Positions 17,037-36,708 of a stretch of 64,000 bases of DNA are shown here, piece by piece. The notes beneath the pieces were generated by a model. It was not told where the DNA came from. It searched no databases and saw nothing but the letters and a program-made list of their open reading frames with translations. The stretch is from a bacterium (GTDB lineage Bacteria; Patescibacteriota; Minisyncoccia; Phycocordibacterales; UBA6899): NCBI GenBank assembly GCA_021851895.1, contig JAJZQJ010000002.1:5046-69045 (forward strand), written 5' to 3'. Made by a program: the position numbers and the translations under genes. Position 1 is the stretch's first letter; each line of letters begins with the position of its first letter.

Positions 17037-17037
17037 C
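17019..17037 (+). repeat. att-like core, copy 1 (inside the tRNA 3' end, from the T-loop to the discriminator)
   Basis: CGAATCCTGCCGCCGGAGC, identical to 17229-17247. Confidence 0.6.
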
Positions 17038-17049
17038 AGAAAACATTAA

Positions 17050-17228: not shown

Positions 17229-17247
17229 CGAATCCTGCCGCCGGAGC
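17229..17247 (+). repeat. att-like core, copy 2 (direct repeat of the tRNA 3' end, 210 bp downstream)
   Basis: 19/19 identity with 17019-17037. The flanks differ, so this is not a full tRNA copy. Confidence 0.6.
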
Positions 17248-17656: not shown

Positions 17657-18118
17657 ATGTCATTTCCACTTCTCGACAGCATCGGTTTATTTCTCATGCT
17701 CTCAGGTTTCATCATCGGGCTCGGTGCAGTGACGGTCATCGACATCCATGGCTTTCTTGGTCGCACATCCTCATATTGGACTGAGGCGACCACGCGAACG
17801 CATAAAGTTACGAAGCCCATGATATGGGCCGGCATCTTTCTCTCTATCGTCGGTGGCGTCATATTCTATCGCAATCAGCCGTTCGCGGGGATTCCTGCGG
17901 CGCATGCGCTCATCGTCGTCGCGCTCCTCTTTAATGGATATTTCCTGTCCTGCAAAGTGAGTCCATTTCTCTTAGCTCGTGAGAGCGAAGGGAAGTCGGG
18001 GGAATTACTCCCGAGTGCATGGCAGCATAAGATCATGGTGAGCCTCATCGTGTCTGACATCGGCTGGTGGGGAGGACTCGTTCTCCTCGTTGTGTACCTC
18101 ACGAGTCGTTTATCATAA
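17657..18118 (+). CDS. hypothetical membrane protein (4 TM)
   Basis: 153 aa with four hydrophobic helices. No motif recognized. Confidence 0.4.
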   Translation: MSFPLLDSIGLFLMLSGFIIGLGAVTVIDIHGFLGRTSSYWTEATTRTHKVTKPMIWAGIFLSIVGGVIFYRNQPFAGIPAAHALIVVALLFNGYFLSCKVSPFLLARESEGKSGELLPSAWQHKIMVSLIVSDIGWWGGLVLLVVYLTSRLS

Positions 18119-18212
18119 ATGGGTGCCAGCGCGTAGGCACAAGTGCTTCGTGTATTGCGCTCCTCTTGTCCGTCGCTCTTTCTGTTCCGCTGCGGGAGTA
18201 TTTATGTGTAAT

Positions 18213-18242
18213 GAAAAACCGGGCGCAAATTGCGCGCCCGGA
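18213..18242 (-). terminator. intrinsic terminator for the GC-rich membrane-protein gene
   Basis: CCGGGCGC-AAATT-GCGCGCCCGG preceded by A5 (a T-run on the minus strand). Confidence 0.65.
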
Positions 18243-18257
18243 GTTTATTCTAATGTG

Positions 18258-20135
18258 CTATTTCTTCTGCTCACGGAGCAGCTGGAGCATCTTCTGCTTC
18301 TCGGCGTCCGTGAGGTTTTCCATCTGACTCGTCGCTTCACGAGCGTCCTTGATGACCGCGTCGGCCTCCGTGGAGACTTTGTGCTGGGCATCGAAGGACT
18401 CTTGGACCTTCGTCTTCGCGAGGGTGAGACCCTGGCACTTGATCGAGTTCAGTGCGATGACCGACTCGTCGTTCTCGAGGAACGATACGGTCACGATGTC
18501 GCCGACGTGGAGCACAGGCGCGACGCGCACGGCTTCATCGGTTCCGCGGGTGGCGAACAGGCGATCGTTCACGCCCTCAAGCGTGAAGTAGAAGGTCTTG
18601 TTCCCGCCGATGACGGTGTCGCCGGTGCGCGTGATGCGCACGGGACCGAGGGTCTTCTTCGCGAGCGCCTTGCCACTCGCCGCGACGGCGTTGCCGTCGC
18701 TCGCGAGCTTCTGGCGGTACGACTCGAGCGCGGTCGTGAGATCACTCTCGATGACGAGCGTATTCACGTTCTCCATAGAGACGAGCGCGACCTTCTGGAA
18801 GAAGGACTGCTCGTTGCTCACGATAGGGATGACCCAGGTGGCCTTGCCGAAGATGTTGTATGGCGTCGGGTGCGTGGGGTGCCAGGTCGTCGCATTCGCG
18901 CCGAGCTGACTGCTCACGGCCTTCATCGCACCGTCTTCGGTCGTGCCACGCATCGGATAGTACTCGGCGCCAGCGATACCCTTGCGGGAGTCGATCAGCA
19001 TGAGTCCGATGAGGGAATCATCCTTCGCATTACTGCTCGTGATGCCGACGCTCCAGTAGAGCTTGTCGCCGAGCTTCACGAGCCACAGGTCGCCCGCAGG
19101 CTTCACGCGGTCATGGTCGTCCCAATTGATGAAACCATGGACGAGGTTGCCCCAGTCGACGATCTGTTCCTTCGCTTGCGCCATGGGGCGGACGCGATCG
19201 ATCCACGAGGGAATCGTGCCGTCCTGCTTGTACTCGCAAGAACCGGTTTCGGGATCAGCGATGATGACGCCGACGGTCTGTTCGCCCCAGAAGCCGATGG
19301 TGGGAGTCATGACGCCGTACGTGTAGTACGGATGCCAGTTCTCGTCCACCTCGAAGGTGACGTCACTTCGGTTCGCCCAGGGAATGTCCTTGTAGACCTT
19401 GCGGTCCAGGTTGTCCCCGAAGACCGCGTTCGGTGTGTACCGAATGGCGAACTTCTTGCCGAGGGCATCCTCGGTGACGAGGGTCGCCTCACGGTTCGGG
19501 TCCTGCGCCGACACCCTGATGTAGCCGGGGATGATGTTGTCGTTGAGACTCGCGAAGTCCGTTGCGTAGTCGAGGGGGAAGATCCACCAGAGTTCGCCGC
19601 GGACCTCTTGGACGGCTCCGTGTTCGAAATCGACATCGAACAGCGACCCGAGGGATTTCCCGTCGGCATTCTGTCCGAGCGCTTTCTTCGCGATGGTGTG
19701 CGCCGTTGCCGCGGAGACCAAGCGGATGTGCTTGGTGTCGGCGAGGGGCACGTTTTCGTTGAAGCGCTGCTTCATCGAGACGTTCCCGATCACGTTGCGG
19801 TACGCTTCCGCATTGAACATCGGACTTGTGCCGATGGCCATGCCGAAGAGGCCGACGAGGATGAGGACGGGGACGGCAATCCCCGCGTGGGGATGGAAGT
19901 CGAAGTATTCGTCTTTTTCGAAGCTGAAGACGAGGCCGAGCACCGCGCCGGTGAGGACGAGGAGCCAGGACTCCGCGAAGCGGAACCCGACCGTGGGGAG
20001 GGCGAAGTACCCGCCGCAGAGGACGAGCAGGAAGGAGAGGCTGCCAGCGGTGATGTACCGCCACGGCGTCTTGATCTTCGCGAGGCCGATGGTGACGATC
20101 GCTGCGATCGCGGCCAGGATGGCGAGGGTGAGCAT
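18258..20135 (-). CDS. large membrane protein: N-terminal TM helices + about 520-aa extracytoplasmic domain (strongly GC-rich gene)
   Basis: 625 aa with hydrophobic N-terminal helices, then a soluble domain with balanced composition and a charged coiled-coil tail. The opposite-strand 695-aa ORF is R/D/G-rich, typical of an antisense artefact. Confidence 0.55.
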   Translation of the reverse strand: MLTLAILAAIAAIVTIGLAKIKTPWRYITAGSLSFLLVLCGGYFALPTVGFRFAESWLLVLTGAVLGLVFSFEKDEYFDFHPHAGIAVPVLILVGLFGMAIGTSPMFNAEAYRNVIGNVSMKQRFNENVPLADTKHIRLVSAATAHTIAKKALGQNADGKSLGSLFDVDFEHGAVQEVRGELWWIFPLDYATDFASLNDNIIPGYIRVSAQDPNREATLVTEDALGKKFAIRYTPNAVFGDNLDRKVYKDIPWANRSDVTFEVDENWHPYYTYGVMTPTIGFWGEQTVGVIIADPETGSCEYKQDGTIPSWIDRVRPMAQAKEQIVDWGNLVHGFINWDDHDRVKPAGDLWLVKLGDKLYWSVGITSSNAKDDSLIGLMLIDSRKGIAGAEYYPMRGTTEDGAMKAVSSQLGANATTWHPTHPTPYNIFGKATWVIPIVSNEQSFFQKVALVSMENVNTLVIESDLTTALESYRQKLASDGNAVAASGKALAKKTLGPVRITRTGDTVIGGNKTFYFTLEGVNDRLFATRGTDEAVRVAPVLHVGDIVTVSFLENDESVIALNSIKCQGLTLAKTKVQESFDAQHKVSTEADAVIKDAREATSQMENLTDAEKQKMLQLLREQKK

Positions 20136-20380
20136 GTATGCTCCTGTGTTGTGCCGGATATCGATCCGGTGTGTTGAAGGGAAAGAGCTTCGGCTGTCCG
20201 AAACTGGGAGATATTATACAATATTTTTATAGATTTGTAAATAGTATCGATGTGAGGGTTTTTCTCGCTTAAAATATTCCCCGGAACTTGCGAAAAGACA
20301 TCCTGATCTGACACGGAAGGGTCCTATCGGAGTTTTCGCATGTCCTGTGCGGAAAACTGAGAAATTTAGAGCTGAATTTA

Positions 20381-20413
20381 TTCACAATACTATATAAAAT
20401 GATATTATTGTGA
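20381..20413 (+). promoter_or_regulatory. inverted repeat TTCACAATA-N15-TATTGTGAA overlapping the radC promoter/start
   Basis: 9-bp perfect arms at 20381-20389 and 20405-20413. The right arm ends 2 nt before ATG 20416, and the AT-rich spacer is -10-like. Confidence 0.5.
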
Positions 20414-20415
20414 AC

Positions 20416-21093
20416 ATGAAACTAAAGGAATTGCATCGTGTCGAGCTTCCACGAGAGAAGTTGGTGAAATATGGCCCCAAGCGTCTCCAATCTGAGGAGT
20501 TGTTTGCAATAATTCTTGGCTCTGGTATTAAAGGGGTCAATGTTCTTACGCTTGCACGTACTGTACTCAAGCACATAGAGAAGAACAAAAATGAGACGAG
20601 CTTAGAAAGTCTCCTGAAGATTAAAGGGTTAGGGACGACTAAGGCGTTGCAGATTATTTCAATATTAGAAATATCTCGTAGGCTACAAGAAAAAGAGAAA
20701 GTAGAAATACTTTCCGCAAAAGATGTTTGGCAGCAGTGCGCAGATTTCCGTGGATCCAAGAAAGAGCACTTCGCCGCCTTCTATCTCGATACACAAAACC
20801 GCCTCATTGAAAGGCAGATCATTTCCGTTGGTACGCTCGATTCTTCTCTCGTCCATCCCCGTGAAGTCTTCGAGCCAGCACTCCGACTTTCTGCTGCATC
20901 GGTCATCGTCGCACATAATCATCCATCTGGTGATCTTGTGCCTTCGGGCGAAGACTTAAGGTTAACGAAACGCCTTAAAGGGGCGGGGGAGTTAATAGGC
21001 ATTAACGTCCTGGATCACATTATCTTGTCTGGCTCAGAACACGGAAGCATAGCTGAGTCAATTGACGATGTACTTAGTGAGAGTATGCTGTAG
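20416..21093 (+). CDS. radC: RadC-like JAB/MPN domain protein (UPF0758)
   Basis: N-terminal HhH-like region plus a JAMM motif (SVIVAHNHPSGDLVPSGED). Confidence 0.8.
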   Translation: MKLKELHRVELPREKLVKYGPKRLQSEELFAIILGSGIKGVNVLTLARTVLKHIEKNKNETSLESLLKIKGLGTTKALQIISILEISRRLQEKEKVEILSAKDVWQQCADFRGSKKEHFAAFYLDTQNRLIERQIISVGTLDSSLVHPREVFEPALRLSAASVIVAHNHPSGDLVPSGEDLRLTKRLKGAGELIGINVLDHIILSGSEHGSIAESIDDVLSESML

Positions 21094-21095
21094 TA

Positions 21096-21686
21096 ATGAA
21101 GCATGGCTGCGCTAAATTAGAGGAAGTCGCGGAAATCATTACAGGTTACTCCTTCCGAAAGAGCATAGAGCCTGATCCCAATGGTCAGATTTTTGTGGTG
21201 CAGGCAAAAGATATCGTAAATGGTGAAATAATTCAGTCTACCGAAAAGCTCACACGCATTCTTGAGGAGCCAAACCATCCAGCATATCTTCAGCGTGATG
21301 ATCTCTTATTGCTATCAAAAGTCTACCCTGGAGCGCAGTTTCGTACGACAATATATCAAGGTTTATCAGGGAAGGTTTTAGCAAGTTCTTCGATTCATGT
21401 GATCCGACTCAAGAATGATTCGGTGCTCCCAGAATACTTATTCATGCTCTTTTCTTCTGGTTTTACGCAGAAGTGGTTGCAAGAAAATTCAAGCGGTGTG
21501 AATACTCCGACGATGCCGCGCGCCACTCTTGGCACACTCACTATCCCAATCATTAGCATTGAGCAACAAAAAGCATATATTTCGCTGTCAAAAGAAATGA
21601 AAAACATGCAGCGTTTGCTCCAAGAGAAAGCTGACCTTATTGCTATCGTACAAGAACAGACACTTGTAAGCTTGATCACCTCGTAA
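21096..21686 (+). CDS. hsdS: type I R-M specificity subunit, half-size (single target-recognition domain)
   Basis: 196 aa. N-terminal KLEEVAEIITG, a TRD, then a conserved coiled-coil region (IPIISIEQQKAYISL...). The start overlaps the radC stop (TAATG). Confidence 0.7.
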   Translation: MKHGCAKLEEVAEIITGYSFRKSIEPDPNGQIFVVQAKDIVNGEIIQSTEKLTRILEEPNHPAYLQRDDLLLLSKVYPGAQFRTTIYQGLSGKVLASSSIHVIRLKNDSVLPEYLFMLFSSGFTQKWLQENSSGVNTPTMPRATLGTLTIPIISIEQQKAYISLSKEMKNMQRLLQEKADLIAIVQEQTLVSLITS

Positions 21687-21706
21687 AGATATAAAACAAA
21701 TTACGT

Positions 21707-22546
21707 ATGGCACAAACAATTTTTGAACAAATCAAGAAGGTAAATGAGTTCGGCGGAGAATATTGGCAGGCGCGTGAGCTCGCAAAGGTTCTTGAATATG
21801 CTGACTTTGGGAATTTTGAAAATGTCATTAAAAAGGCAATGGACGCCTGTGAGGCAAGTGGGCAGGAGGTTGCGGACCATTTCGGTGCTCTCACCGAGAT
21901 GGTCGAAATTGGGTCAGGAGCAAAGCGAGAAATGTCAAGTTATGCACTTTCACGCTATGCCTGTTATCTCATAATCCAGGGCGCAGATACGACGAAGATT
22001 ATTATCGCGAAAGCGCATACATATTTTGCCATACAGACAAGAAGGCAAGAAGTAGCCGACCTCCTTGTCGAAGACAATAAGCGTGTCTTCCTGCGTGAGG
22101 AGATGAAAAAGCATAATAAGAATCTGGTCAGTGCGGCAAAGGACGCAGGTGTGACCAATTATGCGAATTTCCAGGATGCAGGATATATGGGACTTTACGG
22201 TGGTATGCGCCAAAAAGACATTCTCGCGCGCAAGCGTCTCTCCGTGAAAGAGGGCATCCTCGATCACATGGGAAGCGAGGAGCTCGCTGCGAATCTTTTC
22301 CGCGCCACACAAACAGAGGCGAAATTACGACGAGACAACATTAGGGGCCAAATTAAGGCAAATCAAACGCACTATGATGTTGGAGGTAGAGTGCGTGCAA
22401 CCATTAAAGAATTAGGAGGAACGATGCCAGAGAAGTTGCCAAATCCAGGTCCGATAAAGGATTCCGTTAAGCGCATTAAGAGCTCAGCGAAGGCCAAGAG
22501 CATTGTTGAGGGGAAAGTAGTTGCGAGGAAAAAGAAAAAAGCGTAA
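21707..22546 (+). CDS. dinD: DNA-damage-inducible protein D (DinD)-like
   Basis: 279 aa. The segments YWQARELAKVLEY.DF.NF..V...A..ACEASGQ...DHF and SRYACYLIIQ..D..K...A..YFAIQTRRQE match the DinD family as recalled from memory. Confidence 0.55.
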   Translation: MAQTIFEQIKKVNEFGGEYWQARELAKVLEYADFGNFENVIKKAMDACEASGQEVADHFGALTEMVEIGSGAKREMSSYALSRYACYLIIQGADTTKIIIAKAHTYFAIQTRRQEVADLLVEDNKRVFLREEMKKHNKNLVSAAKDAGVTNYANFQDAGYMGLYGGMRQKDILARKRLSVKEGILDHMGSEELAANLFRATQTEAKLRRDNIRGQIKANQTHYDVGGRVRATIKELGGTMPEKLPNPGPIKDSVKRIKSSAKAKSIVEGKVVARKKKKA

Positions 22547-22568
22547 TGCTTAAGAAAAAATAAACATC

Positions 22569-24083
22569 ATGTCTACAAAAACATTCAATCAAGAGGAGCT
22601 CAATAAAGTACTTTGGGCAGCGGCTGATTCCTCTCGAGGTAAGGTTGACGCAAGTATCTATAAGGATTATGTGCTCACGATGCTCTTCTTCAAGTACATG
22701 AGTGATCTGCATAAGAAGACTTATGCAGAGTACCTTAAGCGTTTCGACGGAGATATTGATCGCGTTGAGGAGAAAATGCGTCTCGACCGCTTTGTGCTCC
22801 CCGAGACAGCAACTTTTGAAGCAGTATATGCACAGATAGAGAAGGACAACATCGGCGAAATCATCAATATCGCGCTTAAAGAGGTGGAGGCTGAGAACAG
22901 GGGGAAGCTTGATAAGGTCTTTGCCGTAGACTTCAATTCCGAAAACACCCTCGGTAAGCTCGATGAGCGTAATCGTATGCTGCGTAATTTGCTCAAAGAT
23001 TTCGCAAAGGTGGACTTCAGTGAGGCTGATGAAGACATTGTGGGAAATGCATACATGTATATGATTGAGCGCTTTGGCTCAGCGGCAGGGAAGAAAGCAG
23101 GAGAGTTCTTTACCCCCCGCTCTATCGCTTCGCTCGTCGCACGTCTTGCTGCACCAAAAGCAGGAGATCGTATCGCCGATATGGCCTGTGGGTCAGGCGG
23201 CCTCCTTTTGCTCGCAGGTGAGGAAGTCGAGAAGACTGGCTCAAAGAATTATGCTCTCTATGGTCAAGAGCTTACTGGTACTACCTACCAGCTCGCGCGT
23301 ATGAACATGTTCCTACATCAGAAGGATTCGGCACGCATTGAATGGGGCGATACGCTCAATAGTCCGCTCCTTGTGGAGAACGATCAGCTCATGCGCTTTG
23401 ACGTCTCTGTTGCAAATCCTCCCTTCTCGCTCAAGAAGTGGGGTGCAGAGAATGCAGAGAATGATAAGTACAATCGTTTCTGGCGCGGAATACCACCGAA
23501 GGACAAAGGAGACTATGCCTTCGTAACCCATATGGTTGAAACCACGAAGCCAAAGTCGGGTCGTGGTGTTATCGTCGTGCCCCATGGAGTGCTCTTCCGT
23601 GGTGGAGCGGAAGGGAGAATTCGTGAAGCATTGCTCAAGGAAAATATCATCGATGCAGTCATTGGGCTTCCTGCTGGGCTTTTCCAAACGACAGGTATCC
23701 CCGTCGCAATCCTTATATTCGATCGCTCTCGAGAAGTGGGGGGTGCGAACGAATCTCGCAAAGATGTGCTCTTCATTGAAGCCTCGAAAGAATTCAAGGC
23801 AGGCAAAGCGCAAAGTACCCTCACTGATGAGAATGCGGCAAAGATTATTGATACGTACAAGGGGAGAAAAGAAATCGAAAAGTTCTCTCGTAAAGTCTCG
23901 CTTAAAGAGATCGAGGAGGAAAATGACTTTAATCTAAATATCACTCGATATGTCGATACCTTTGAAGAGGAGGATGAAATTGATATTTCTGCAAATCTCA
24001 AAGAGTTATCTAAGGTAAACGCTGAATTGAAGGAGGTCGAGAAGAAGATGGAGGAGTATTTAAAGATGCTTAATATCGCATAA
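22569..24083 (+). CDS. hsdM: type I R-M N6-adenine DNA methyltransferase subunit
   Basis: 504 aa. N-terminal HsdM helical domain, AdoMet motif I (DMACGSGGLLL) and motif IV NPPF (VANPPFS). Confidence 0.9.
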   Translation: MSTKTFNQEELNKVLWAAADSSRGKVDASIYKDYVLTMLFFKYMSDLHKKTYAEYLKRFDGDIDRVEEKMRLDRFVLPETATFEAVYAQIEKDNIGEIINIALKEVEAENRGKLDKVFAVDFNSENTLGKLDERNRMLRNLLKDFAKVDFSEADEDIVGNAYMYMIERFGSAAGKKAGEFFTPRSIASLVARLAAPKAGDRIADMACGSGGLLLLAGEEVEKTGSKNYALYGQELTGTTYQLARMNMFLHQKDSARIEWGDTLNSPLLVENDQLMRFDVSVANPPFSLKKWGAENAENDKYNRFWRGIPPKDKGDYAFVTHMVETTKPKSGRGVIVVPHGVLFRGGAEGRIREALLKENIIDAVIGLPAGLFQTTGIPVAILIFDRSREVGGANESRKDVLFIEASKEFKAGKAQSTLTDENAAKIIDTYKGRKEIEKFSRKVSLKEIEEENDFNLNITRYVDTFEEEDEIDISANLKELSKVNAELKEVEKKMEEYLKMLNIA

Positions 24084-24086
24084 AAC

Positions 24087-25100
24087 ATGGCAAAGGTAAA
24101 ACAGGCAACAAAAACTTGGGAAGAGCTCGAGAAATTAAGACTCGAATTCGAACAGAGGCTCTTTCCGCAGGTTAAAGCAAAAATTGATGAAATAGAAGCC
24201 TATAGAGATACTCTTCTCGATGACAATGAAAAGAAGTCATTAAGCACGACTATTTCTGAGTTGTCGGATAAAATCACCGAACTAGAGGAGTCCTTCAAAG
24301 AAAAATTCAGTGACATAGAAACTTTGCATGAGAGGATTTTTCACGGGGATGAGGAGAATGATGCGTTGTCTGATCAGGTTGATGAGTTTGTAAATAAAGC
24401 AAAAGGAGAGCTTGCTGGCTTGAATACAAAACACGCTGATATTAATAGGTATCATGAAAAGGTATTTGGTGAGAAGGATGCTTCTGGAAAGTATTCAGGT
24501 GGGCTCGCGTCAGAGCTAGAAAAGTATGGAAAGAAGTATGAAGCCCTATTTGGCCAAATAGAAGGCTTATTGCCAGGTGCTACAAGTGCTGGTCTTGCTC
24601 AGGCATTTAGCGATAAGGTTGATGAATACAAGAAAGAGGCTTCAAAGTGGAAGTGGATTACTTTTGGCTCCTTGTGTATCGCAGTCGTTCTTAGTATCGT
24701 CTCATACTGGCTTGATCGTGGTCAGGTGCTCTCGTTTTCATTTGTCATGATCCGGCTTGCACAGAAATTGCCTTTTGTTTTGTTTGCAGTTTGGCTGGTT
24801 GTATATGCAAATAATCGACGTGCAGAAAATAAAAAACTCGAAGAGTCATATAAGCATAAAGAGGTAATCGCGAGATCTTTTGTGGGCTATAGGAAGCAAA
24901 TTGAGGATCTCGATCTCGACACTGAAGATAATAATTTACTTATTTCGCTCACGACAGGATTACTTGATGCCATCATGATCAATTCATCAGATTTCTTAAC
25001 AGCGACTGGCGAGAAGAGTCCGATTCATGAAATGCTTGATAAAGCTGCAGATACTGCGAGTGCCGCAGTATCTAGCCCTGTAATTTCTATAAAGAAATAA
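24087..25100 (+). CDS. coiled-coil / 2-TM protein of unknown function embedded between hsdM and hsdS (candidate membrane effector)
   Basis: 337 aa. About 190 aa of heptad-rich helical N-terminus, then two adjacent TM helices (WKWITFGSLCIAVVLSIVSYWL; LPFVLFAVWLVVYANN) and about 100 aa of C-terminus. ATG 3 nt after the hsdM stop and 3 nt before the hsdS start. Confidence 0.6.
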   Translation: MAKVKQATKTWEELEKLRLEFEQRLFPQVKAKIDEIEAYRDTLLDDNEKKSLSTTISELSDKITELEESFKEKFSDIETLHERIFHGDEENDALSDQVDEFVNKAKGELAGLNTKHADINRYHEKVFGEKDASGKYSGGLASELEKYGKKYEALFGQIEGLLPGATSAGLAQAFSDKVDEYKKEASKWKWITFGSLCIAVVLSIVSYWLDRGQVLSFSFVMIRLAQKLPFVLFAVWLVVYANNRRAENKKLEESYKHKEVIARSFVGYRKQIEDLDLDTEDNNLLISLTTGLLDAIMINSSDFLTATGEKSPIHEMLDKAADTASAAVSSPVISIKK

Positions 25101-25103
25101 TTC

Positions 25104-26246
25104 ATGGAACTAGCGAAACAAAAAATTCCGTCCACTTGGCAAAAACTTCGCCTCGGTGATTGTCTGACAATAAAGCATGGTAAATCACAAAAAGAAATTG
25201 AAGTAGTCGATGGTAAATATCCCATCCTTGCTTCAGGTGGAGTTATAGGGAGAACTAATACTCCACTATATAGTAAGCCATCAGTATTAATCGGTAGAAA
25301 AGGGACGATTGATAAGCCTAGATACATGGATACTCCTTTTTGGACGGTAGATACGCTATTTTACAGTCAGGTAAAGGACAACTCTGTACCCAAGTATTTG
25401 TTTTATGTATTCAATTTCATTGACTGGTATGAATACAATGAGGCTTCGGGAGTCCCAAGTCTTTCGTCGAGCACTATTTCCTCAATAGAAGTTCTACTTC
25501 CTCCTCTCCCTGAACAAAACCGCATCGTTTCGGTTCTTGAAACCTGGGATAAGGCAATTGAAAAACTTTCTCGAAAGATTGAAATTAAGAAGGAAATCAA
25601 GAGGGGATTGATGCGGGGCTTACTGACTGGCAAGCTCAGGGTAACAGGTCGCGGTGGGAGTTGGGATGTCTATAAAATCGGTGACATAATTGTTGAAAGT
25701 CGAATTCCTTCCAAGAGTTTTGATGTTACTAAAAGGATTAGTGTGCGACTAAATATGAATGGCGTAGAGAGTAGGGAAGTGCGAGGTACTGAGGCTGAGG
25801 GCTCGACCATGTTTTTCGTTAGGAGCGCTGGTCAGTTTGTTTATGGAAAGCAAAATTTATATAAGGGAGCGATGGGGATTATTCCAGAACAGCTTAATGG
25901 TTATGAGAGCACTCAAGATATCCCCTCTTTTGATTTCAGGGAAGGATTTGATTCTAAGTGGTTCTTGTATTTCATGGGCAGAGAAAGTTTTTATTCGCAA
26001 CTTGAAGATATTGCAACTGGTTCAGGGTCCAAGCGAATTCATCCACGAGATTTATTTAAAATTAAGATTCGGGTACCTAAATATGACGAACAGTTAGCAA
26101 TTGCATCTGTGCTATCGGTTGCCGATTCGGAAATCCGCATACTTACCCAAAAACAGCAGTGTCTAGAGAGGCAGAAAAAGTTTCTCCTTAATAATCTTGT
26201 CACTGGAAAAATTCGTACTCCAGAAAACCTACAATATGCTAAATAA
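25104..26246 (+). CDS. hsdS: type I R-M specificity subunit (two TRDs)
   Basis: 380 aa. Two TRDs separated and followed by conserved regions (LLPPLPEQNRIVSVLE...; VPKYDEQLAIASVL...). Confidence 0.85.
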   Translation: MELAKQKIPSTWQKLRLGDCLTIKHGKSQKEIEVVDGKYPILASGGVIGRTNTPLYSKPSVLIGRKGTIDKPRYMDTPFWTVDTLFYSQVKDNSVPKYLFYVFNFIDWYEYNEASGVPSLSSSTISSIEVLLPPLPEQNRIVSVLETWDKAIEKLSRKIEIKKEIKRGLMRGLLTGKLRVTGRGGSWDVYKIGDIIVESRIPSKSFDVTKRISVRLNMNGVESREVRGTEAEGSTMFFVRSAGQFVYGKQNLYKGAMGIIPEQLNGYESTQDIPSFDFREGFDSKWFLYFMGRESFYSQLEDIATGSGSKRIHPRDLFKIKIRVPKYDEQLAIASVLSVADSEIRILTQKQQCLERQKKFLLNNLVTGKIRTPENLQYAK

Positions 26247-29200
26247 AGTCCATTTTGATGAAGCGCGTCAGGTACAGTTGCCCGCAGTAGAGTTGCTCAT
26301 AAGCCTTGGTTATGAGTATATTTCGGTGAGCGAGGCGCTGCGTGAGCGTGGGGGAGATGAACGTAACGTAATACTGCGTGATATCGCGCGTGCGAAGTTA
26401 ATGGAAATTAATAGCTATGAGCTCGATGGTGAAAAGATGCAATTCACTCCTCGCGATGTGAATGAGGCTATTGATGAGCTCGAAAACCTTCCATTTGAGG
26501 GACTTCAGAAGACCGCACAAAACATTTACCGCATGATCATGCCGACGAGTGGCGGGAAGACTGTCGAGGTGCGTAAGGGAGACTCGAAAAACTTTCGTTT
26601 CATCGATTTTGCGGAACCCCATAATAATGCTTTTCATGTGACGGTAGAATATACCGTCGTTGGTAAAGAAGAGATCCGCCCGGATATCGTTTGTTTTGTG
26701 AATGGTTTTCCTATTGCGGTTATCGAAAGCAAGAAGCATACGGTATCGGTGGAAGAAGCACTAGAGCAGATGGTGCGCAATCAAGGCGTCGAATATGCTC
26801 CAAAACTATATACCTTTGCACAGATACTTGTGGGCTCAAATGGTACTGATTTCCGCTATGGTACAACCGGCACTGGCGAGAAATTTTATGCAGTCTGGAA
26901 AGAAAAGCCTAGAGAGAAAGGAGAGGCGGATCTTGAGCGACTTGATGCGCGCGTAAAGGAATTAATTGCTCAGCCGATTGCCGTAGGTGTGTATCAAGAA
27001 TTGCTCAATGACTTGAGCCGAGGCCAATCACATCATGAGCAACTTTGCGATCGCCCTATTACTGCGCAAGATCGCAGTATCGTCGCACTCTTTACGCCAG
27101 AGCGCTTACTTGATCTCACAAAGCACTTTGTGATTTTCGATGCAATGGAGAAGAAGATTGCACGCTATCAGCAGTATTTTGCTATTGAGAAGATGCGTCG
27201 CCGTGTGATGGAGAAGGAGGCCGCACCTGAGGGCGGCGAGCGTCGCCGTGGCGGTATCGTCTGGCATACACAAGGGTCTGGAAAGTCGCTGACGATGGTG
27301 CTCTTCGTGAAGGCGCTTATAGAGGATGAGCATATTAAGAATCCTCGTGTCATTATTGTTACCGACCGCAGAGATCTTGATAGGCAAATCAAGGGAACGT
27401 TTGAGAATTGTGGACTCAAGAAGGACGTCGTCCAGGCAAAGACGGGACAGCACCTGCTTGATCTTATTCAAGAGAAGAATCTTGGAGTCATCACCACTCT
27501 CGTGCAAAAGTTTGAGAGCGTCGCGAAGAAGCGTGAAGATTTTGTTGACCCCGATGAGAACATCTTTGTGCTCATCGATGAGGCGCATCGTACCCACGGC
27601 GGTATGGCGAGCCTTGAGATGTCCCGCACAATACCGAATGCTTGCTATATTGCCTTTACGGGTACGCCACTCATGCGCGAGGAGAAGGAGAGCTGGAGGC
27701 GTTTTGGGGCATATATTGACAAATATACCATTGATGACGCCGTGCTCGATGGTAATGTGCTCCCACTGATCTATGAGGGACGCTTTGTGCCGCTTGTGCA
27801 GAATGCAAAGAAGATTGATGAGCTTGTTGATCGTGTAAAAGAGCGTGCAATACACAAATACCAGTCCAATGGTGAAGAAGATAAACGCGAAGAGGAGTCG
27901 GTAAATCGCGAAGCGTTGGTCAATAATCCACAGCGCCTCCGTGAAATAGTCCATGATATTGAATCGCATTATAAGATGGAGCTGCAGGGGACAGGACTTA
28001 AGGCGCAAGTTGTTGCTCCCAGCAAATTTGCGGCAGTAAAAATGCAACAAATGTTTCTCGAGAGCGGGTTGGTGAAGTCTGCGGTCGTTGTCTCAGATGA
28101 GTCGGGGATTGTTCATGAGGATGACTACCGAAGGCAGGAAGTTGTCGATTTCTTGGATAAGATAAAAGATACTCATTCGAGTATTGAAGAATATGAGAAA
28201 GAAGTGATTCGCGACTTCAAGGATAATGCAGATGGTGTCGAAGTGCTTATCGTTGTCCATAAGCTCCTCACGGGTTTTGATGCCCCAAGAAATACCGTGC
28301 TTTACCTCGCAAAGAGTTTGAGGGACCATGACTTACTTCAAGCAATTGCTCGTGTGAACAGGCTTTGCGATAAGGGCAAGAAGCAGAAAACATCAGGGTA
28401 TATTATTGATTATTCCGAGAATGCACAACACCTCAAGAGTGCGATGCAGCTCTTTGGGAACTACGAGGAGGACGATGTGCACGGCACGCTTGTGGACGTG
28501 GGAGAGAAGATGCAGGAACTGGCACAAGCATATGCGGCCATACATGATATTTTTCGTGGCGTGCATGGGGCGAAGACGGTAGAACCGTTCATGGAGGTGC
28601 TCAAGGCAGAGGATACACGCGTGGAATTTAATGCCGCAGTAAATACATACACAAAGCTCTTCAGTGAATGTCTTGCGTTGAAGGATTTCAATGAGAACTT
28701 CAAAGATATTGATCTGTATAAGCGAGAGCTCAGAAAGTTCGTCGAATTAAGAAAGCTTTCGCGGTTCAGATACGGCGAGCGAACGGACTTTAATGAGTAC
28801 AAATTTGCGTTGATGCGTATCCTTGATCAGTATGTTGATACCGAAGGAGGCGTGGAGCGTCTTACTGAAAAGATTGATGTTCGCGATATTGCTCAGGTGC
28901 GTAAGGCTGTTGAAGAGATCGTAGATAGCAAGGAGAAGGCTGAGGCGATTGCGACACAGGTGAATAAGACTATTCACGACCGTGAGGCTGAGGATCCTGT
29001 CTACTATAAGTCACTCTCGGAACGAGTTGAGGAAATTATACGAGCGATGCGAGAGGGGAGAATGCAAGACCTCGTTGCCCTTGAAGGGCTCGAAGAATTG
29101 CTCATTGCCGCAAATGAGAAGAAGCAGGCCTCAGTACCAAGTCAGATTGAAGCTGAACATGGAGCAGATCTATTTTATCGAAATTTACTTCCACATTTTG

Positions 29201-29454
29201 AGCGTTTTCATCTTATCTCAGATCAAGAGGTGATGCTTTCATTGAGTGTCTTTAAGATTATTAAAGAATTTGCAATAGTCGATTTTGAGCATAACGTCGA
29301 TGTACAGCGCCGCATGCGTAGTGCGCTTGATGACTACTTGTATGATGGTTTCCCTTCCGAGTGGAATGTTTCGCTATCTTCGAGAGAAAGGGGAGACATA
29401 GTTGCCGCAATGGTTGAACTCGCAAAACACAATCATGAGCTCTTTAGTGCATAA
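26236..29454 (+). CDS. hsdR: type I R-M restriction subunit (helicase/endonuclease)
   Basis: About 1072 aa. N-terminal nuclease region, SF2 helicase motifs (GSGKSLTM Walker A; DEAH: LIDEAHRTHGG; motif VI QAIARVNR). The ATG at 26236 overlaps the hsdS stop. Confidence 0.9.
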   Translation: MLNKVHFDEARQVQLPAVELLISLGYEYISVSEALRERGGDERNVILRDIARAKLMEINSYELDGEKMQFTPRDVNEAIDELENLPFEGLQKTAQNIYRMIMPTSGGKTVEVRKGDSKNFRFIDFAEPHNNAFHVTVEYTVVGKEEIRPDIVCFVNGFPIAVIESKKHTVSVEEALEQMVRNQGVEYAPKLYTFAQILVGSNGTDFRYGTTGTGEKFYAVWKEKPREKGEADLERLDARVKELIAQPIAVGVYQELLNDLSRGQSHHEQLCDRPITAQDRSIVALFTPERLLDLTKHFVIFDAMEKKIARYQQYFAIEKMRRRVMEKEAAPEGGERRRGGIVWHTQGSGKSLTMVLFVKALIEDEHIKNPRVIIVTDRRDLDRQIKGTFENCGLKKDVVQAKTGQHLLDLIQEKNLGVITTLVQKFESVAKKREDFVDPDENIFVLIDEAHRTHGGMASLEMSRTIPNACYIAFTGTPLMREEKESWRRFGAYIDKYTIDDAVLDGNVLPLIYEGRFVPLVQNAKKIDELVDRVKERAIHKYQSNGEEDKREEESVNREALVNNPQRLREIVHDIESHYKMELQGTGLKAQVVAPSKFAAVKMQQMFLESGLVKSAVVVSDESGIVHEDDYRRQEVVDFLDKIKDTHSSIEEYEKEVIRDFKDNADGVEVLIVVHKLLTGFDAPRNTVLYLAKSLRDHDLLQAIARVNRLCDKGKKQKTSGYIIDYSENAQHLKSAMQLFGNYEEDDVHGTLVDVGEKMQELAQAYAAIHDIFRGVHGAKTVEPFMEVLKAEDTRVEFNAAVNTYTKLFSECLALKDFNENFKDIDLYKRELRKFVELRKLSRFRYGERTDFNEYKFALMRILDQYVDTEGGVERLTEKIDVRDIAQVRKAVEEIVDSKEKAEAIATQVNKTIHDREAEDPVYYKSLSERVEEIIRAMREGRMQDLVALEGLEELLIAANEKKQASVPSQIEAEHGADLFYRNLLPHFERFHLISDQEVMLSLSVFKIIKEFAIVDFEHNVDVQRRMRSALDDYLYDGFPSEWNVSLSSRERGDIVAAMVELAKHNHELFSA

Positions 29455-30169
29455 ACAAAACATACGACATAAAGGTGAAGTCTTTGAGTACCAAGTGTGG
29501 CGTTCTGGTCGTAAAACTCTCGCCCTCACGGTAACTCCTGCCATGGAGCTTATTGTGCGTTCTCCTTTTGAAAAGAGCCTAGAGGAGATTGAGAATTTTC
29601 TCATGCGTAAAATACAATGGGTTCGAAAGCAGCTCGCATTCTTCGGCACACAGGAGCCTGCTCAGGTTGAACGTCGATATATTTCCGGGGAAGCGCATTA
29701 TTATCTTGGGAGGCAGTATATGCTCGAAGTTGCTGAAAGTCATCGAGAATATGTAAGTGTTTCTCGTGAGCGTATTATGCTTTATCGTAGGTCCGAGAAT
29801 TCTCGTGATTTGATGGGAGCAAAGCAATTATTTCTGAAGTGGCAGAGTGAGATGGTTGCGAAACATCTTAATGAGCGATATCGTGCAATGTCACGACTCT
29901 TTGATTATAAGGACATACCAACTATGGAGATCAAAGCCATGGAAAAGCGTTGGGGGAGTTACCGTGTGAAGACAAAATCAATCGCGCTTAATGCAAAGCT
30001 GATCCATGCTCCACTCGATGCCATTGATTATGTTATCGTGCATGAACTTTGTCATCACGAGCATCATGATCATGGTAAGGAGTTTTATAAGCTTCTAAGT
30101 AGAAAGATGCCAAACTGGCAGGTTGAAAAGAAGAAACTTGAGCGATACGGCGCTCTTGTGTGCGGATGA
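29435..30169 (+). CDS. DUF45/YgjP-like zinc metallohydrolase (WLM/SprT-like), overlapping the hsdR 3' end
   Basis: HELCHHEHHDHGKEFY motif (HEXXH...H). This family is commonly encoded next to hsdR. The ATG at 29435 lies 20 nt inside hsdR. Confidence 0.7.
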   Translation: MSSLVHKQNIRHKGEVFEYQVWRSGRKTLALTVTPAMELIVRSPFEKSLEEIENFLMRKIQWVRKQLAFFGTQEPAQVERRYISGEAHYYLGRQYMLEVAESHREYVSVSRERIMLYRRSENSRDLMGAKQLFLKWQSEMVAKHLNERYRAMSRLFDYKDIPTMEIKAMEKRWGSYRVKTKSIALNAKLIHAPLDAIDYVIVHELCHHEHHDHGKEFYKLLSRKMPNWQVEKKKLERYGALVCG

Positions 30170-30171
30170 GT

Positions 30172-30196
30172 AAAAATGGGGTCATGCCCCATTTTT
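30172..30196. repeat. REP-like palindrome AAAAATGGGG-TCATG-CCCCATTTTT (also acts as a terminator)
   Basis: Same family as the hairpins flanking the RAYT gene at 35882 and 36665. Confidence 0.55.
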
Positions 30197-30257
30197 CTTG
30201 CAACTCATTTGCATCTCCATGGTATAATACCCATATTCTTGTCTCTTCTGCCCTGTT

Positions 30258-35874: not shown

Positions 35875-35881
35875 GTATATG

Positions 35882-36690: not shown

Positions 36691-36708
36691 CTGCTATAAT
36701 TTGATAGT

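What the first reader, a model, noticed from the sequence alone, without database searches (positions are those of the whole stretch)
20381..30196. Type I R-M operon carrying four extra passenger genes in a single tightly packed transcription unit
Eight same-strand genes run from 20416 to 30169 with 0-22-nt gaps or overlaps: radC, hsdS(half), dinD, hsdM, a coiled-coil/2TM protein, hsdS, hsdR and DUF45/YgjP. The unit is bounded by a palindromic operator-like site upstream and a REP-like hairpin downstream. It follows the GC-rich membrane-protein gene and the tRNA/att region. A canonical type I system needs only hsdR, hsdM and hsdS. Accessory genes inserted between hsd genes are, in known cases (prrC, rloC, abi genes), second-line abortive-infection or anti-restriction-counter modules. 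Here four such passengers are stacked.
Basis: partly seen in the sequence, partly recalled or inferred. Interest (0 to 1): 0.7.

Follow-up and report, generated by a model that had tools for sequence, protein, structure and literature searches.

The report
Type I restriction operon with cargo
This is an intact type I restriction-modification operon from a probable Patescibacteria genome; it carries two embedded cargo genes, one of them from a large unnamed membrane-protein family that sits inside such operons in 25 of 41 lineages examined, so it is a new example of a known pattern rather than a new kind of system.

Summary
Eight same-strand genes (20416-30169) are packed with gaps of 2-22 nt or overlaps of 11-20 nt. 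HMM searches identify them as RadC, a one-TRD half HsdS, DinD, HsdM, an unnamed coiled-coil/2-TM protein ("X"), HsdS, HsdR and a YgjP/DUF45 peptidase.

The interpretation of four stacked abortive-infection passengers is only partly supported.
- **YgjP** directly follows hsdR in 4 of 5 sampled plasmid systems and in related metagenomic loci. It is a conserved fourth gene of this subfamily, not cargo.
- **RadC** looks like a resident gene. In 7 of 8 Paceibacteria contexts its downstream side holds RM systems of several types, and in 8 of 8 it holds RM or toxin-antitoxin genes. This points to a hotspot.
- **The half HsdS** most likely adds a second, palindromic specificity.
- **True embedded cargo** is DinD (PADLOC candidate PDC-S13, 57.6% identical to E. 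coli DinD) and X.

X is the interesting part. It has no Pfam or PADLOC family and about 1,500 clusters at E<=1e-10. Its core is two TM helices followed by NRRAENKKLEESYKHKE. It is linked to hsdM/S/R in 25 of 41 distinct lineages. No function was tested.

Embedding of defence genes in type I RM is already published (PrrC, TgvAB, guilt-by-embedding).

The parts
20381..20414 (+). Perfect 9-nt inverted repeat TTCACAATA-N16-TATTGTGAA overlapping a promoter-like -35 TTCACA / extended -10 TGTATTAT. A transcript starting about 7 nt after the -10 would begin at the radC ATG, making it leaderless (inference).
   Evidence: Sequence and promoter scan, 10 of 12 matches. Not conserved in L029 or in any other of the 77 loci. 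An operator role is unproven.
20416..21093 (+). radC, full length: UPF0758 N-terminal HhH domain plus RadC JAB domain, with the HNHPSG motif intact. Best read as a resident gene at the edge of the hotspot that heads the transcription unit.
   Evidence: Pfam and NCBIfam. Nearest relatives are 60-78% identical and all Paceibacteria. RM or TA systems lie directly downstream of radC in 8 of 8 contexts.
21096..21686 (+). Half-size hsdS: one target-recognition domain plus one conserved helix, 196 aa.
   Evidence: PF01420, E 1.9e-10. PADLOC Specificity_I profile positions 199-388 of 392, E 9.5e-18. No DNA repeats shared with the full hsdS and no significant similarity to it. An intact counterpart sits at the same position in L029, 36% identical.
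21707..22546 (+). dinD-type gene (Bro-N domain plus DinD C-terminal region). Embedded cargo; matches PADLOC candidate PDC-S13.
   Evidence: NCBIfam PRK11525, 3e-106. PADLOC PDC-S13, 2e-105. Also matches the N-terminus of an HsdS profile, which reflects DinD-HsdS fusions. 57.6% identical to E. coli DinD.
22569..24083 (+). hsdM, N6-adenine methyltransferase. DMACGSGG and NPPF motifs are present.
   Evidence: PF02384, 2.5e-97. PF12161. TIGR00497, 273.6 bits against a cutoff of 242.75. Motifs read from the translation.
24087..25100 (+). X, 337 aa. Variable N-terminal coiled coil, a conserved LLPGATSAGLA..F helix, two TM helices (about 190-210 and 219-241), then the near-invariant NRRAENKKLEESYKHKEV.ARSF.GY. 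Member of an unnamed family; embedded cargo.
   Evidence: No Pfam, NCBIfam or PADLOC family. Alignment A1. Hydropathy and conservation. AF2 model is all-helical, pLDDT 67.7. No PDB fold match. Genomic context.
25104..26246 (+). hsdS, full length with two TRDs.
   Evidence: PF01420, two stretches, 2.5e-28. Many PADLOC Specificity_I profiles.
26236..29454 (+). hsdR, 1072 aa from the ATG at 26236. PD..E.K nuclease motif, Walker A GSGKS and DEAH box are present. Overlaps hsdS by 11 nt.
   Evidence: HSDR_N, SWI2_SNF2, ResIII and T1R_D3-like domains. TIGR00348, 489 bits. Closest solved structure is EcoR124I HsdR, E 4e-39.
29435..30169 (+). YgjP/DUF45-type zinc metallopeptidase with an HELCH (HExxH) motif. 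Overlaps hsdR by 20 nt. A conserved fourth gene of this R-M subfamily.
   Evidence: PF01863, 5.8e-49. The same position after hsdR is seen in L002, L008 and L029 and in 4 of 5 sampled plasmids.
30172..30200 (+). Hairpin AAAAATGGGGTCATGCCCCATTTTT. Terminator-like, and one of three near-identical extragenic copies in the window.
   Evidence: Fold of -27.5 kcal/mol, z -6.2. Other copies at 35884 and 36670, with 0 expected by chance. Sequences.

Best explanation
**What it is.** The locus is an intact type I R-M operon of the hsdM-hsdS-hsdR-peptidase subfamily. Its HsdR is closest to type IC EcoR124I. It sits immediately downstream of the resident radC gene of a probable Paceibacteria (Patescibacteria) genome. 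In relatives, that position is occupied by other R-M and toxin-antitoxin cassettes.

**Core function.** This follows from family knowledge and was not tested here. HsdM2-HsdS methylates a bipartite site. With HsdR, the complex translocates and cuts unmethylated DNA.

**Additions to the core.**
1. A half-size HsdS. As a homodimer it would give the same M and R subunits a second, palindromic specificity (inference from precedent).
2. A YgjP-type zinc peptidase translationally coupled to hsdR. This is a conserved companion. It plausibly controls or removes HsdR, for example in restriction alleviation (speculative).
3. Two exchangeable cargo genes in the slots around hsdM: a DinD-type protein and X.

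**Proposed role of X.** X most likely acts as an autonomous or R-M-guarding membrane effector. Its variable cytoplasmic coiled coil would be the sensing or partner-binding part. The invariant 2-TM + NRRAENKKLEESYKHKE module would be the output at the membrane (inference; about 0.3 for this specific mechanism).

**Transcription.** All eight genes are probably transcribed from the promoter-like site at 20381-20408 to the hairpin at 30172-30200. This is inferred from spacing only.
For: - **Gene identities and intact catalytic motifs:**
- **No room for internal promoters:** the largest gap is 22 nt. The number of promoter-like sites does not exceed shuffles (15 against 14.6). The end hairpin is strong.
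- **Same block in L029:** RadC-halfS-M-X-147aa-DUF3644-S-R-YgjP. HsdM is 71% identical, HsdR 53%, RadC 54%, YgjP 42%, X 41% and halfS 36%. Nothing else is shared in the flanks.
- **L002 and L008:** M-X-S-DinD-R-YgjP.
- **YgjP after hsdR in plasmids:** Sulfitobacter, Klebsiella, Zymomonas and Komagataeibacter. Other cargo (DUF3800; YecA plus a cold-shock-domain protein) sits between S and R.
- **RadC hotspot:**. RadC identity between the window and L029 (54%) is below HsdM identity (71%) and below RadC identity to many other Paceibacteria (60-78%). This fits vertical inheritance of radC and horizontal exchange of the cassette.
- **X embedding:** X is linked to same-strand hsdM/S/R within 4 kb in 25 of 41 distinct lineages. 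It occurs in Patescibacteria and Proteobacteria.
- **X also stands alone:** beside a recombinase and Rep gene, between IS110 copies, in Tn7-like cargo, and next to a DUF4435 + AAA ATPase pair.
- **Homodimeric half-S precedent:** PMC3874165.
- **DinD-HsdS fusion that stays active:** PMC4996451.
- **Embedding as a marker of defence genes:** bioRxiv 10.1101/2024.01.29.577857, PMC11411939 and PMC12707154.
Against: - No transcript, methylation or phage data exist for this locus.
- X has no detectable enzymatic or known effector domain. Its structure model is only moderate (pTM 0.28), so the effector idea rests on context and topology.
- The M-X-S order with 3-nt spacers would also fit a stoichiometric structural partner of the methylase.
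- The half HsdS shows no significant similarity to the conserved helices of the full HsdS. Its compatibility with this HsdM is therefore not shown.
- The YgjP-HsdR functional link is positional only.
- RadC could still have a real functional tie to R-M. The tight spacing (2-46 nt) to four different R-M types is striking.
- The host taxon is inferred from nearest relatives only.
Confidence: 0.7

Rival explanations
1. All non-hsd genes (radC, dinD, X, ygjP) are second-line abortive-infection or anti-anti-restriction modules stacked in one operon, each firing when the R-M system is inhibited.
For: - All are co-oriented and tightly packed.
- PrrC shows that such guards exist inside type I loci (PMC12707154).
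- DinD matches a PADLOC defence candidate.
- X is strongly enriched inside type I loci.
Against: - YgjP is present in this position in most sampled systems with no other cargo. It behaves as a system component.
- RadC precedes unrelated R-M types and TA modules, and looks vertically inherited.
- None of the four has a recognised toxin or effector domain apart from the predicted metallopeptidase and JAB folds.
- No phenotype data exist.
Confidence: 0.12
2. X is not a separate defence module. It is a structural accessory of the R-M enzyme: a membrane tether whose coiled coil holds the methylase/restriction complex at the inner membrane, for example near DNA-entry sites in these small, presumably competent cells.
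For: - The usual order is hsdM-X-hsdS, with 3-4 nt gaps or small overlaps. This suggests co-translation with M and S.
- Both termini are predicted to be cytoplasmic, and there is a long coiled coil.
- From my own knowledge, not checked here: type I enzymes have been reported to associate with the membrane.
Against: - X occurs without any R-M gene within 8-10 kb in several lineages and on plasmids and transposons.
- Its position varies: after S in L026, and 3 kb away in L016, L018 and L039.
- The most conserved part is the membrane-proximal motif, not the coiled coil that would have to bind M/S.
Confidence: 0.15
3. DinD and X are selfish hitchhikers or mobile-element genes, for example serving plasmid or transposon biology or acting as addiction modules. 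They accumulate in R-M operons because insertions there are tolerated, and they contribute nothing to defence.
For: - Both are found on plasmids beside partition, integrase, TA or transposition genes.
- The window DinD is 57.6% identical to the E. coli protein, which indicates recent cross-phylum transfer.
- Payne et al. state that more than half of embedded genes have no assigned role.
Against: - Both ORFs are intact and translationally coupled.
- X keeps a near-invariant 30-residue motif across phyla, which indicates strong purifying selection.
- 25 of 41 lineages embedded in the same kind of system is far above what random tolerated insertion would give.
Confidence: 0.15

Closest known systems
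EcoprrI-PrrC (type IC R-M locus with the embedded anticodon nuclease PrrC) and the C. jejuni rlo genes
   Same: An accessory gene is nested between hsd genes of a type IC-like operon. It is co-oriented and tightly spaced. Homologues also occur outside R-M loci. PrrC is the paradigm of an R-M guard (PMC12707154).
   Different: X has no ABC-ATPase or nuclease domain. It is a 2-TM membrane protein. It usually sits between hsdM and hsdS rather than between hsdS and hsdR. No trigger or activity is known.
Embedded defence candidates of Payne et al. 2024 ('guilt-by-embedding'; PADLOC PDC systems), including PDC-S13
   Same: The DinD-type gene matches PDC-S13 at 2e-105. The whole locus is an instance of the published pattern of genes embedded in type I R-M.
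   Different: X matches none of the 5027 PADLOC v2 models. Here two cargo genes plus a half hsdS are combined. The host is a Patescibacteria MAG rather than a RefSeq genome.
TgvAB inside the Vibrio cholerae VPI-2 type I R-M operon
   Same: Cargo lies inside a functional type I operon, and the proposed relation to the R-M system is one of complementary protection (PMC11411939).
   Different: TgvAB is a GmrSD-like type IV nuclease pair with proven anti-phage activity. DinD and X are unrelated to it and untested.
hsdM-hsdS-hsdR-SprT/YgjP peptidase operons on proteobacterial plasmids (e.g. Zymomonas pZZ6.03, Komagataeibacter pKNA09, Klebsiella IncF plasmids)
   Same: Same gene order. The peptidase gene abuts or overlaps the end of hsdR. 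HsdR is of similar length, about 1070-1100 aa.
   Different: The window version adds radC and the half hsdS upstream, and carries cargo around hsdM. Peptidase identity to these plasmid proteins is only 32-37%.
Truncated or half HsdS of EcoDXXI and NgoAV
   Same: A single-TRD S polypeptide that can dimerise and specify an interrupted palindrome (PMC3874165).
   Different: Here the half S is an additional gene alongside a full-length hsdS, and it is conserved as such in L029. Its activity is untested.

Membership tests
Type I restriction-modification system | HsdM with HsdM_N and N6_Mtase domains, AdoMet-binding motif and NPPF catalytic motif | tested here: met
   PF02384, 2.5e-97. PF12161, 8.4e-19. 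TIGR00497, 273.6 bits against a cutoff of 242.75. DMACGSGG and NPPF read in the translation.
Type I restriction-modification system | HsdS with two target-recognition domains separated by conserved helices | tested here: met
   PF01420 matches in two stretches, 2.5e-28. Full-length matches to PADLOC Specificity_I profiles.
Type I restriction-modification system | HsdR with an N-terminal PD-(D/E)xK nuclease and an SF2 motor (Walker A, DEAH) | tested here: met
   HSDR_N, 8e-37. SWI2_SNF2, 4.2e-74. TIGR00348, 489 bits against a cutoff of 284.55. Motifs PDIV...IESKK, GSGKS and DEAH read.
Type I restriction-modification system | Sequence-specific methylation and ATP-dependent restriction activity | not testable with these tools
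   Requires a methylome and restriction assays.
Type IC family (EcoR124I-like) | Close sequence relation and subunit complementation with EcoR124I, EcoDXXI or EcoprrI | tested here: inconclusive
   EcoR124I HsdR is the best solved relative (E 4e-39), but the best stretch covers only the motor domain, residues 285-511. The M-S-R gene order fits. Complementation cannot be tested.
PrrC/RloC anticodon-nuclease guards | N-terminal ABC-type ATPase (AAA_13) plus C-terminal anticodon nuclease domain | tested here: not met
   X has no Pfam or NCBIfam domain above noise, and no other gene in the operon carries AAA_13. X is therefore not a member, although it might work in a similar way.
DinD (NCBIfam PRK11525) / PADLOC PDC-S13 | Full-length match to the DinD equivalog model above the curated cutoff | tested here: met
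   355 bits against a cutoff of 242. PDC-S13, 2e-105. 57.6% identical to E. coli DinD over 87% of its length.
DinD (NCBIfam PRK11525) / PADLOC PDC-S13 | SOS (LexA) regulation, RecA-filament inhibition, anti-phage activity | not testable with these tools
   The gene has no promoter region of its own (20-nt gap). The biochemistry and the phenotype are untested.
YgjP-like / DUF45 metallopeptidase (PF01863) | Domain match plus an HExxH zinc-binding motif | tested here: met
   PF01863, 5.8e-49, covering profile positions 1-206 of 207. HELCH read in the translation.
RadC (NF000642 equivalog) | UPF0758 N-terminal HhH domain plus a RadC JAB domain with the HxHPSG metal site | tested here: met
   215.9 bits against a cutoff of 180. 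PF04002, 7.2e-40. PF20582, 3.2e-17. HNHPSG read.
SLATT-type 2-TM effector domains | Match to the Pfam SLATT families | tested here: not met
   No SLATT family appears in the lists returned when all 22 members of A1 were scanned at E<=5. Those lists show the best 25 families for the window protein and the 25 families matched by most members. Ten more distant members gave no Pfam hit at E<=0.001.
Phase-variable hsdS shufflon / inverton | Inverted or direct repeats shared by hsdS copies, plus a nearby site-specific recombinase | tested here: not met
   There is no repeat longer than chance between 21096-21686 and 25104-26246. There is no significant protein similarity, E 0.34. No recombinase lies in the operon or its immediate flanks.
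REP-like repeated extragenic palindrome | Near-identical palindromic hairpins repeated in intergenic regions | tested here: met
   Three copies at 30175, 35884 and 36670, with 0 expected. Each follows a + strand gene and carries a T-run, so they also fit intrinsic terminators. A RAYT transposase was not looked for.

The most novel reading that the evidence does not exclude
X founds a new, widespread family of type I R-M-embedded membrane effectors. The family has about 1,500 clusters at 50% identity (E<=1e-10) and is especially common in Patescibacteria. In this reading X guards the R-M enzyme: its variable coiled coil senses loss or inhibition of the HsdM/HsdS complex (or a phage product), and the invariant 2-TM + NRRAENKKLEESYKHKE module then disrupts the membrane to abort infection. 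This would be a PrrC-like logic with a membrane output. A second reading that the evidence does not exclude is that the downstream side of radC is a dedicated defence-island hotspot across Paceibacteria.
Probability: 0.25. Interest if true: 0.7.

Novelty: new variant of a known kind. Interest (0 to 1): 0.45.

Why it matters
Patescibacteria have tiny genomes, usually lack CRISPR, and are thought to rely on R-M systems. Knowing what else rides inside those operons shows how these cells defend themselves.

The unnamed X family is large and has no Pfam or PADLOC model. It is embedded in type I R-M in most lineages examined, which makes it a ready candidate for the kind of functional test that validated other embedded systems.

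The radC-downstream hotspot, if general, would give a simple anchor for mining defence cargo in uncultured Paceibacteria.

The conserved hsdR-YgjP coupling offers a testable lead on how type IC-like systems, which are not controlled by ClpXP, achieve restriction alleviation.

Tried and rejected
- **Shufflon or phase variation of hsdS.** Rejected: no shared repeats and no recombinase.
- **Island bounded by tRNA/att.** ARAGORN found no tRNA. An intron-split tRNA and an 18-nt repeat exist, but both lie upstream of the operon and no integrase is present. This does not explain the locus.
- **Conserved operator.** The palindrome is not found in any related locus. Left open as unproven.
- **Naming X.**
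  - Pfam, NCBIfam, PADLOC and PHROGs gave only coiled-coil noise. The one exception was a weak hit to PHROG 30912, of unknown function, E 4.7e-07.
  - The AF2 model has pLDDT 67.7 and pTM 0.28.
  - Foldseek against PDB found nothing at E<0.2.
  - The AFDB library was unavailable.
  - IMG/VR has no relative.
- **X as PrrC/RloC or SLATT.** Rejected on domain content.
- **RadC as mobile cargo of the cassette.** This was considered because homology between L029 and the window starts exactly at radC. It was rejected as the main reading after relatives showed unrelated R-M types in the same place, and RadC identities pointed to vertical descent.
- **Literature on a DUF45/COG1451 link to type I R-M.** Searches found nothing usable. 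Makarova 2011 is not held.
- **Taxonomic marker in the window.** The large ORFs scanned are kinases, a P-type ATPase and an M3 peptidase, none useful for placement.

Full report
**1. The observation**

ORF listing shows eight + strand genes from 20416 to 30169.
- Coordinates: 20416-21093, 21096-21686, 21707-22546, 22569-24083, 24087-25100, 25104-26246, 26236-29454 and 29435-30169.
- Spacing: gaps of 2, 20, 22, 3 and 3 nt, then overlaps of 11 and 20 nt.
- The start codons I use are the ones the metagenome gene caller chose on the identical contig (L001).
- Identities from Pfam, NCBIfam and PADLOC, in order: RadC; a 196-aa one-TRD HsdS; DinD (Bro-N domain, PRK11525 at 355 bits, PADLOC PDC-S13 at 2e-105); HsdM; a protein with no family ("X"); a two-TRD HsdS; HsdR; and a YgjP/DUF45 zinc peptidase.
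- Catalytic motifs are intact in the translations: DMACGSGG and NPPF in HsdM; PD..E.K, GSGKS and DEAH in HsdR; HExxH in YgjP; HNHPSG in RadC.

**2. Boundaries**

*Upstream.*
- The 9-nt perfect inverted repeat TTCACAATA-N16-TATTGTGAA (20381-20414) is present.
- It coincides with the best + strand promoter-like site in the intergenic region: TTCACA-16-TATTAT with a TG extension.
- A start about 7 nt after the -10 would fall on the radC ATG, which would make the mRNA leaderless. This is inference.
- The motif is not conserved upstream of the orthologous block in L029, nor in any of the 76 other loci fetched. An operator role is unproven.

*Downstream.*
- AAAAATGGGGTCATGCCCCATTTTT folds at -27.5 kcal/mol, z -6.2.
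- It is one of three near-identical extragenic hairpins in the window, at 30175, 35884 and 36670, with none expected by chance.
- Each copy follows a + strand gene and is flanked by A and T runs. It is a repeated terminator-type hairpin, so "REP-like" is descriptively fair.

*Other claims in the finding.*
- The GC-rich gene upstream (18258-20135) is on the minus strand and diverges from the operon.
- ARAGORN finds no tRNA in the window. Rfam finds a group I intron at 16736-16991 (74.5 bits) that splits a tRNA gene.
- Splicing at U16740 and G16998 gives a 73-nt tRNA-Asn(GUU) that ARAGORN accepts.
- An 18-nt exact repeat of the tRNA 3' end lies 210 nt further on.
- Both repeat copies are upstream of the operon and no integrase is nearby. 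The R-M block is not bracketed by att sites.

**3. Related loci**

*X family and its hosts.*
- X has about 190 word-index homologues.
- By full HMM search it has 2,892 clusters at 50% identity at E<=1e-3, 1,497 at E<=1e-10 and 385 at E<=1e-30.
- Named hosts are mainly Patescibacteria: Saccharibacteria, Gracilibacteria, Moraniibacteriota, Falkowbacteria and Peribacteria. A few are Proteobacteria.

*Closest counterpart, L029.*
- Gene order: RadC - half HsdS - HsdM - X - 147-aa ORF - DUF3644 - HsdS - HsdR - YgjP.
- Identities to the window: HsdM 71%, RadC 54%, HsdR 53%, YgjP 42%, X 41%, half S 36%, HsdS 31%.
- No other gene in the L029 flanks matches anything in the 64-kb window.
- This is the same architecture, with DinD absent and different cargo in another slot.

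*Other embedded and standalone cases.*
- L002 and L008 carry (MerR-)HsdM - X - HsdS - Bro-N/DinD-like - HsdR - YgjP. L008 is from a Saccharibacteria MAG; the taxon of L002 (GCA_964419765.1) was not reported. Their core enzyme is more distant (HsdM 41-45%, HsdR 29-31%) but X is equally similar at 41-44%.
- An Arenicellales chromosome has HsdM - HsdS - X - HsdR of the EcoEI type.
- I pooled genome and metagenome loci and clustered X at 90% identity. Of 41 distinct lineages, 25 have a same-strand hsdM, hsdS or hsdR within 4 kb, most often in the order M-X-S. Several of the remaining 16 have flanks too short to judge.
- X also occurs alone: beside a serine recombinase and a Rep gene, and between IS110 copies.
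- Distant homologues (hhalign probability 98-99%) share the KLE(E/Q)xYxHKE..A.SF..YK core. They occur on Campylobacter conjugative plasmids next to a DUF4435 + AAA ATPase pair, and in Tn7-like cargo on Acinetobacter and enterobacterial plasmids.

**4. What X looks like**

- Alignment A1 shows a variable N-terminal coiled coil with mean column conservation of 0.45.
- Next comes a conserved FY.KVFG / LLPGATSAGLA..F segment.
- Two hydrophobic helices follow, at about 190-210 and 219-241.
- Straight after the second comes the near-invariant NRRAENKKLEESYKHKEV.ARSF.GY, with conservation of 0.87.
- Lys/Arg residues flank both TM helices on the N- and C-terminal sides, and the loop between them is short. 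Both termini should therefore be cytoplasmic. This is inference from the positive-inside rule.
- AlphaFold2 gives an all-helical model of moderate confidence: pLDDT 67.7, pTM 0.28.
- Foldseek against PDB finds nothing.
- No Pfam, NCBIfam or PADLOC model matches X or ten diverse relatives. The only database hit is a weak one to PHROG 30912, of unknown function.
- X is therefore a member of a large, unnamed family.

**5. The other "passengers"**

*YgjP.*
- tblastn finds homologues on 499 plasmids.
- I sampled five across the ranking. Four show M-S-(cargo)-R-YgjP with the peptidase abutting or overlapping hsdR: Sulfitobacter, Klebsiella, Zymomonas and Komagataeibacter. The fifth is a degraded fragment among transposases.
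- YgjP is thus a regular fourth gene of this subfamily, not an exotic passenger.
- Some of these operons carry other cargo between S and R: DUF3800, or YecA plus a cold-shock-domain protein. That slot is evidently a common landing site.

*DinD.*
- The window protein is 57.6% identical to E. coli DinD, but only 31% identical to the Bro-N proteins of L002 and L008.
- DinD genes also stand alone on plasmids next to partition, integrase or TA genes.
- dinD fused to hsdS, with the S subunit still active, is documented in Bibersteinia (PMC4996451).
- A dinD/RhuM CDS between type I core genes is listed in PMC9881135.
- One PADLOC HsdS profile contains a DinD N-terminus.
- DinD-like genes are therefore known type I R-M cargo and a published, untested defence candidate.

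*Half HsdS.*
- It aligns to the C-terminal half (TRD plus distal helix) of full-length S profiles.
- It shares no repeats and no significant similarity with the full hsdS, so a shufflon is excluded.
- It is kept intact at the same position in L029.
- Truncated S subunits dimerise and specify interrupted palindromes: EcoDXXI and NgoAV (PMC3874165).
- A second specificity for the same M and R subunits is the simplest reading. This is inference.

*RadC.*
- The nearest relatives (60-78% identity) are all from Paceibacteria.
- I examined eight distinct contexts, with these contents downstream of radC:
  - this operon;
  - the L029 operon;
  - HsdM-RhuM-AAA_13-...;
  - a MutH-domain protein plus a C5 methylase;
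  - a type IB HsdR-Fic-HsdM-AAA_15/21-HsdS operon;
  - a type ISP/IIG-like enzyme about 2 kb away;
  - a Phd/ParE pair followed by HsdM-DUF3800-HsdS about 3 kb away;
  - a Phd/ParE pair only.
- That is 7 of 8 with R-M within about 3 kb, and 8 of 8 with R-M or TA.
- RadC is less similar between the window and L029 (54%) than HsdM is (71%), and less similar than RadC is to many other Paceibacteria.
- The simplest reading is that radC is a vertically inherited resident gene whose downstream side is a hotspot for defence cassettes. A general functional tie between RadC and restriction is not excluded.

**6. How it most likely works**

*Shown.*
- An intact type I R-M gene set with all motifs.
- Operon-like packing.
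- Conservation of the M-X-S and R-YgjP junctions in independent systems.

*Inferred from family knowledge.*
- M2S methylates. R2M2S translocates and cleaves unmethylated DNA.
- The half S adds a palindromic specificity.

*Speculative.*
- YgjP acts on HsdR. Type IC EcoR124I shows restriction alleviation that does not use ClpXP, by an unresolved mechanism (PMC3874165).
- DinD acts with the S/M complex, following the Rosetta-stone logic of the fusions.
- X is a membrane effector or guard.

For X, the pattern of a variable N-terminus and an invariant membrane-proximal module fits a sensor-plus-effector protein. So does its frequent embedding combined with standalone copies on mobile DNA. The alternative, a membrane tether for the enzyme, fits the M-X-S coupling but fits the standalone copies poorly.

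**7. Comparison with what is known**

- Embedding of accessory defence genes in type I R-M is established.
  - PrrC in EcoprrI and the rlo genes (PMC12707154).
  - TgvAB (PMC11411939).
  - The systematic "guilt-by-embedding" survey, which produced the PDC candidates, including the one that DinD matches (bioRxiv 10.1101/2024.01.29.577857).
- Type I R-M on genomic islands of Patescibacteria has also been reported (PMC12455944).
- What is new here:
  - the X family and the strength of its association with type I R-M;
  - the combination with a conserved extra half hsdS;
  - the radC-adjacent placement.
- X fails the membership tests for PrrC/RloC and SLATT.

**8. Verdict**

There are two true cargo genes, not four. 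YgjP is a conserved component, RadC is a resident flank, and the half S is an R-M part.
- Novelty: a new variant of a known kind.
- Interest is moderate (0.45), carried by X and the radC hotspot. No function has been tested.

Noticed in passing
window 16709-17038 (+): A tRNA gene is split by a group I intron (Rfam RF00028, 74.5 bits, 16736-16991). Splicing at U16740 and G16998 gives a 73-nt tRNA-Asn(GUU). ARAGORN finds no tRNA in the raw window because of the intron.
   Followed up: partly
window 17020-17037 and 17230-17247: An exact 18-nt direct repeat of the tRNA 3' end (GAATCCTGCCGCCGGAGC; 0.04 expected by chance). The copies are 210 nt apart, with a terminator-like hairpin and a GC-rich stretch between them. 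It looks like an att scar, and no integrase is nearby.
   Followed up: partly
window 18090-20177: The metagenome gene caller annotated the + strand ORF here (L001, 657 aa, no Pfam). The - strand ORF 18258-20135 (625 aa, hydrophobic N-terminus, ordinary composition) looks like the real gene. It has a strong divergent promoter-like site at 20241-20213 (11 of 12 matches).
   Followed up: no
loci L029, L068, L070-L077 and window 20416-21093: In Paceibacteria the region directly downstream of radC holds R-M systems of at least four kinds (type IC-like, type IB, MutH-type nuclease plus C5 methylase, type ISP/IIG) or Phd/ParE toxin-antitoxin pairs. This suggests a radC-anchored defence hotspot.
   Followed up: partly
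window 35880-35905 and 36667-36692: Two more copies of the hairpin AAAATGGGGTC(NNN)CCCCATTTT flank the ORF at 35913-36644. Together with the copy at 30172 they form a family of near-identical terminator-like palindromes.
   Followed up: partly
window 21707-22546: The DinD-type protein is 57.6% identical to E. coli DinD over 87% of its length. That is far closer than it is to the Bro-N proteins in the related loci L002 and L008 (31%), and it suggests fairly recent cross-phylum transfer.
   Followed up: partly
L002 3671-5395: In this related system HsdM carries an N-terminal MerR-type HTH domain (574 aa). This hints at autoregulation by the methylase, and the window HsdM lacks it.
   Followed up: no
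L068 2214-9485: Downstream of a RadC that is 78% identical to the window protein lies another type I operon. It has embedded RhuM and AAA_13 genes (AAA_13 is, from my own knowledge, the ATPase family of PrrC/RloC) and a 401-aa protein with no family.
   Followed up: no
L062 1568-7032 (Campylobacter novaezeelandiae plasmid pCNZW441b1): A distant X homologue (401 aa) lies directly after a DUF4435 protein and an AAA ATPase. From my own knowledge that pair resembles the PARIS system, which senses anti-restriction proteins.
   Followed up: no
window 24001-26000: GC content drops to 0.40 over X and hsdS, against about 0.49 for the window as a whole and 0.58-0.60 for the genes at 14-16 kb and 18-20 kb. 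This is consistent with foreign origin of the variable middle of the operon.
   Followed up: no
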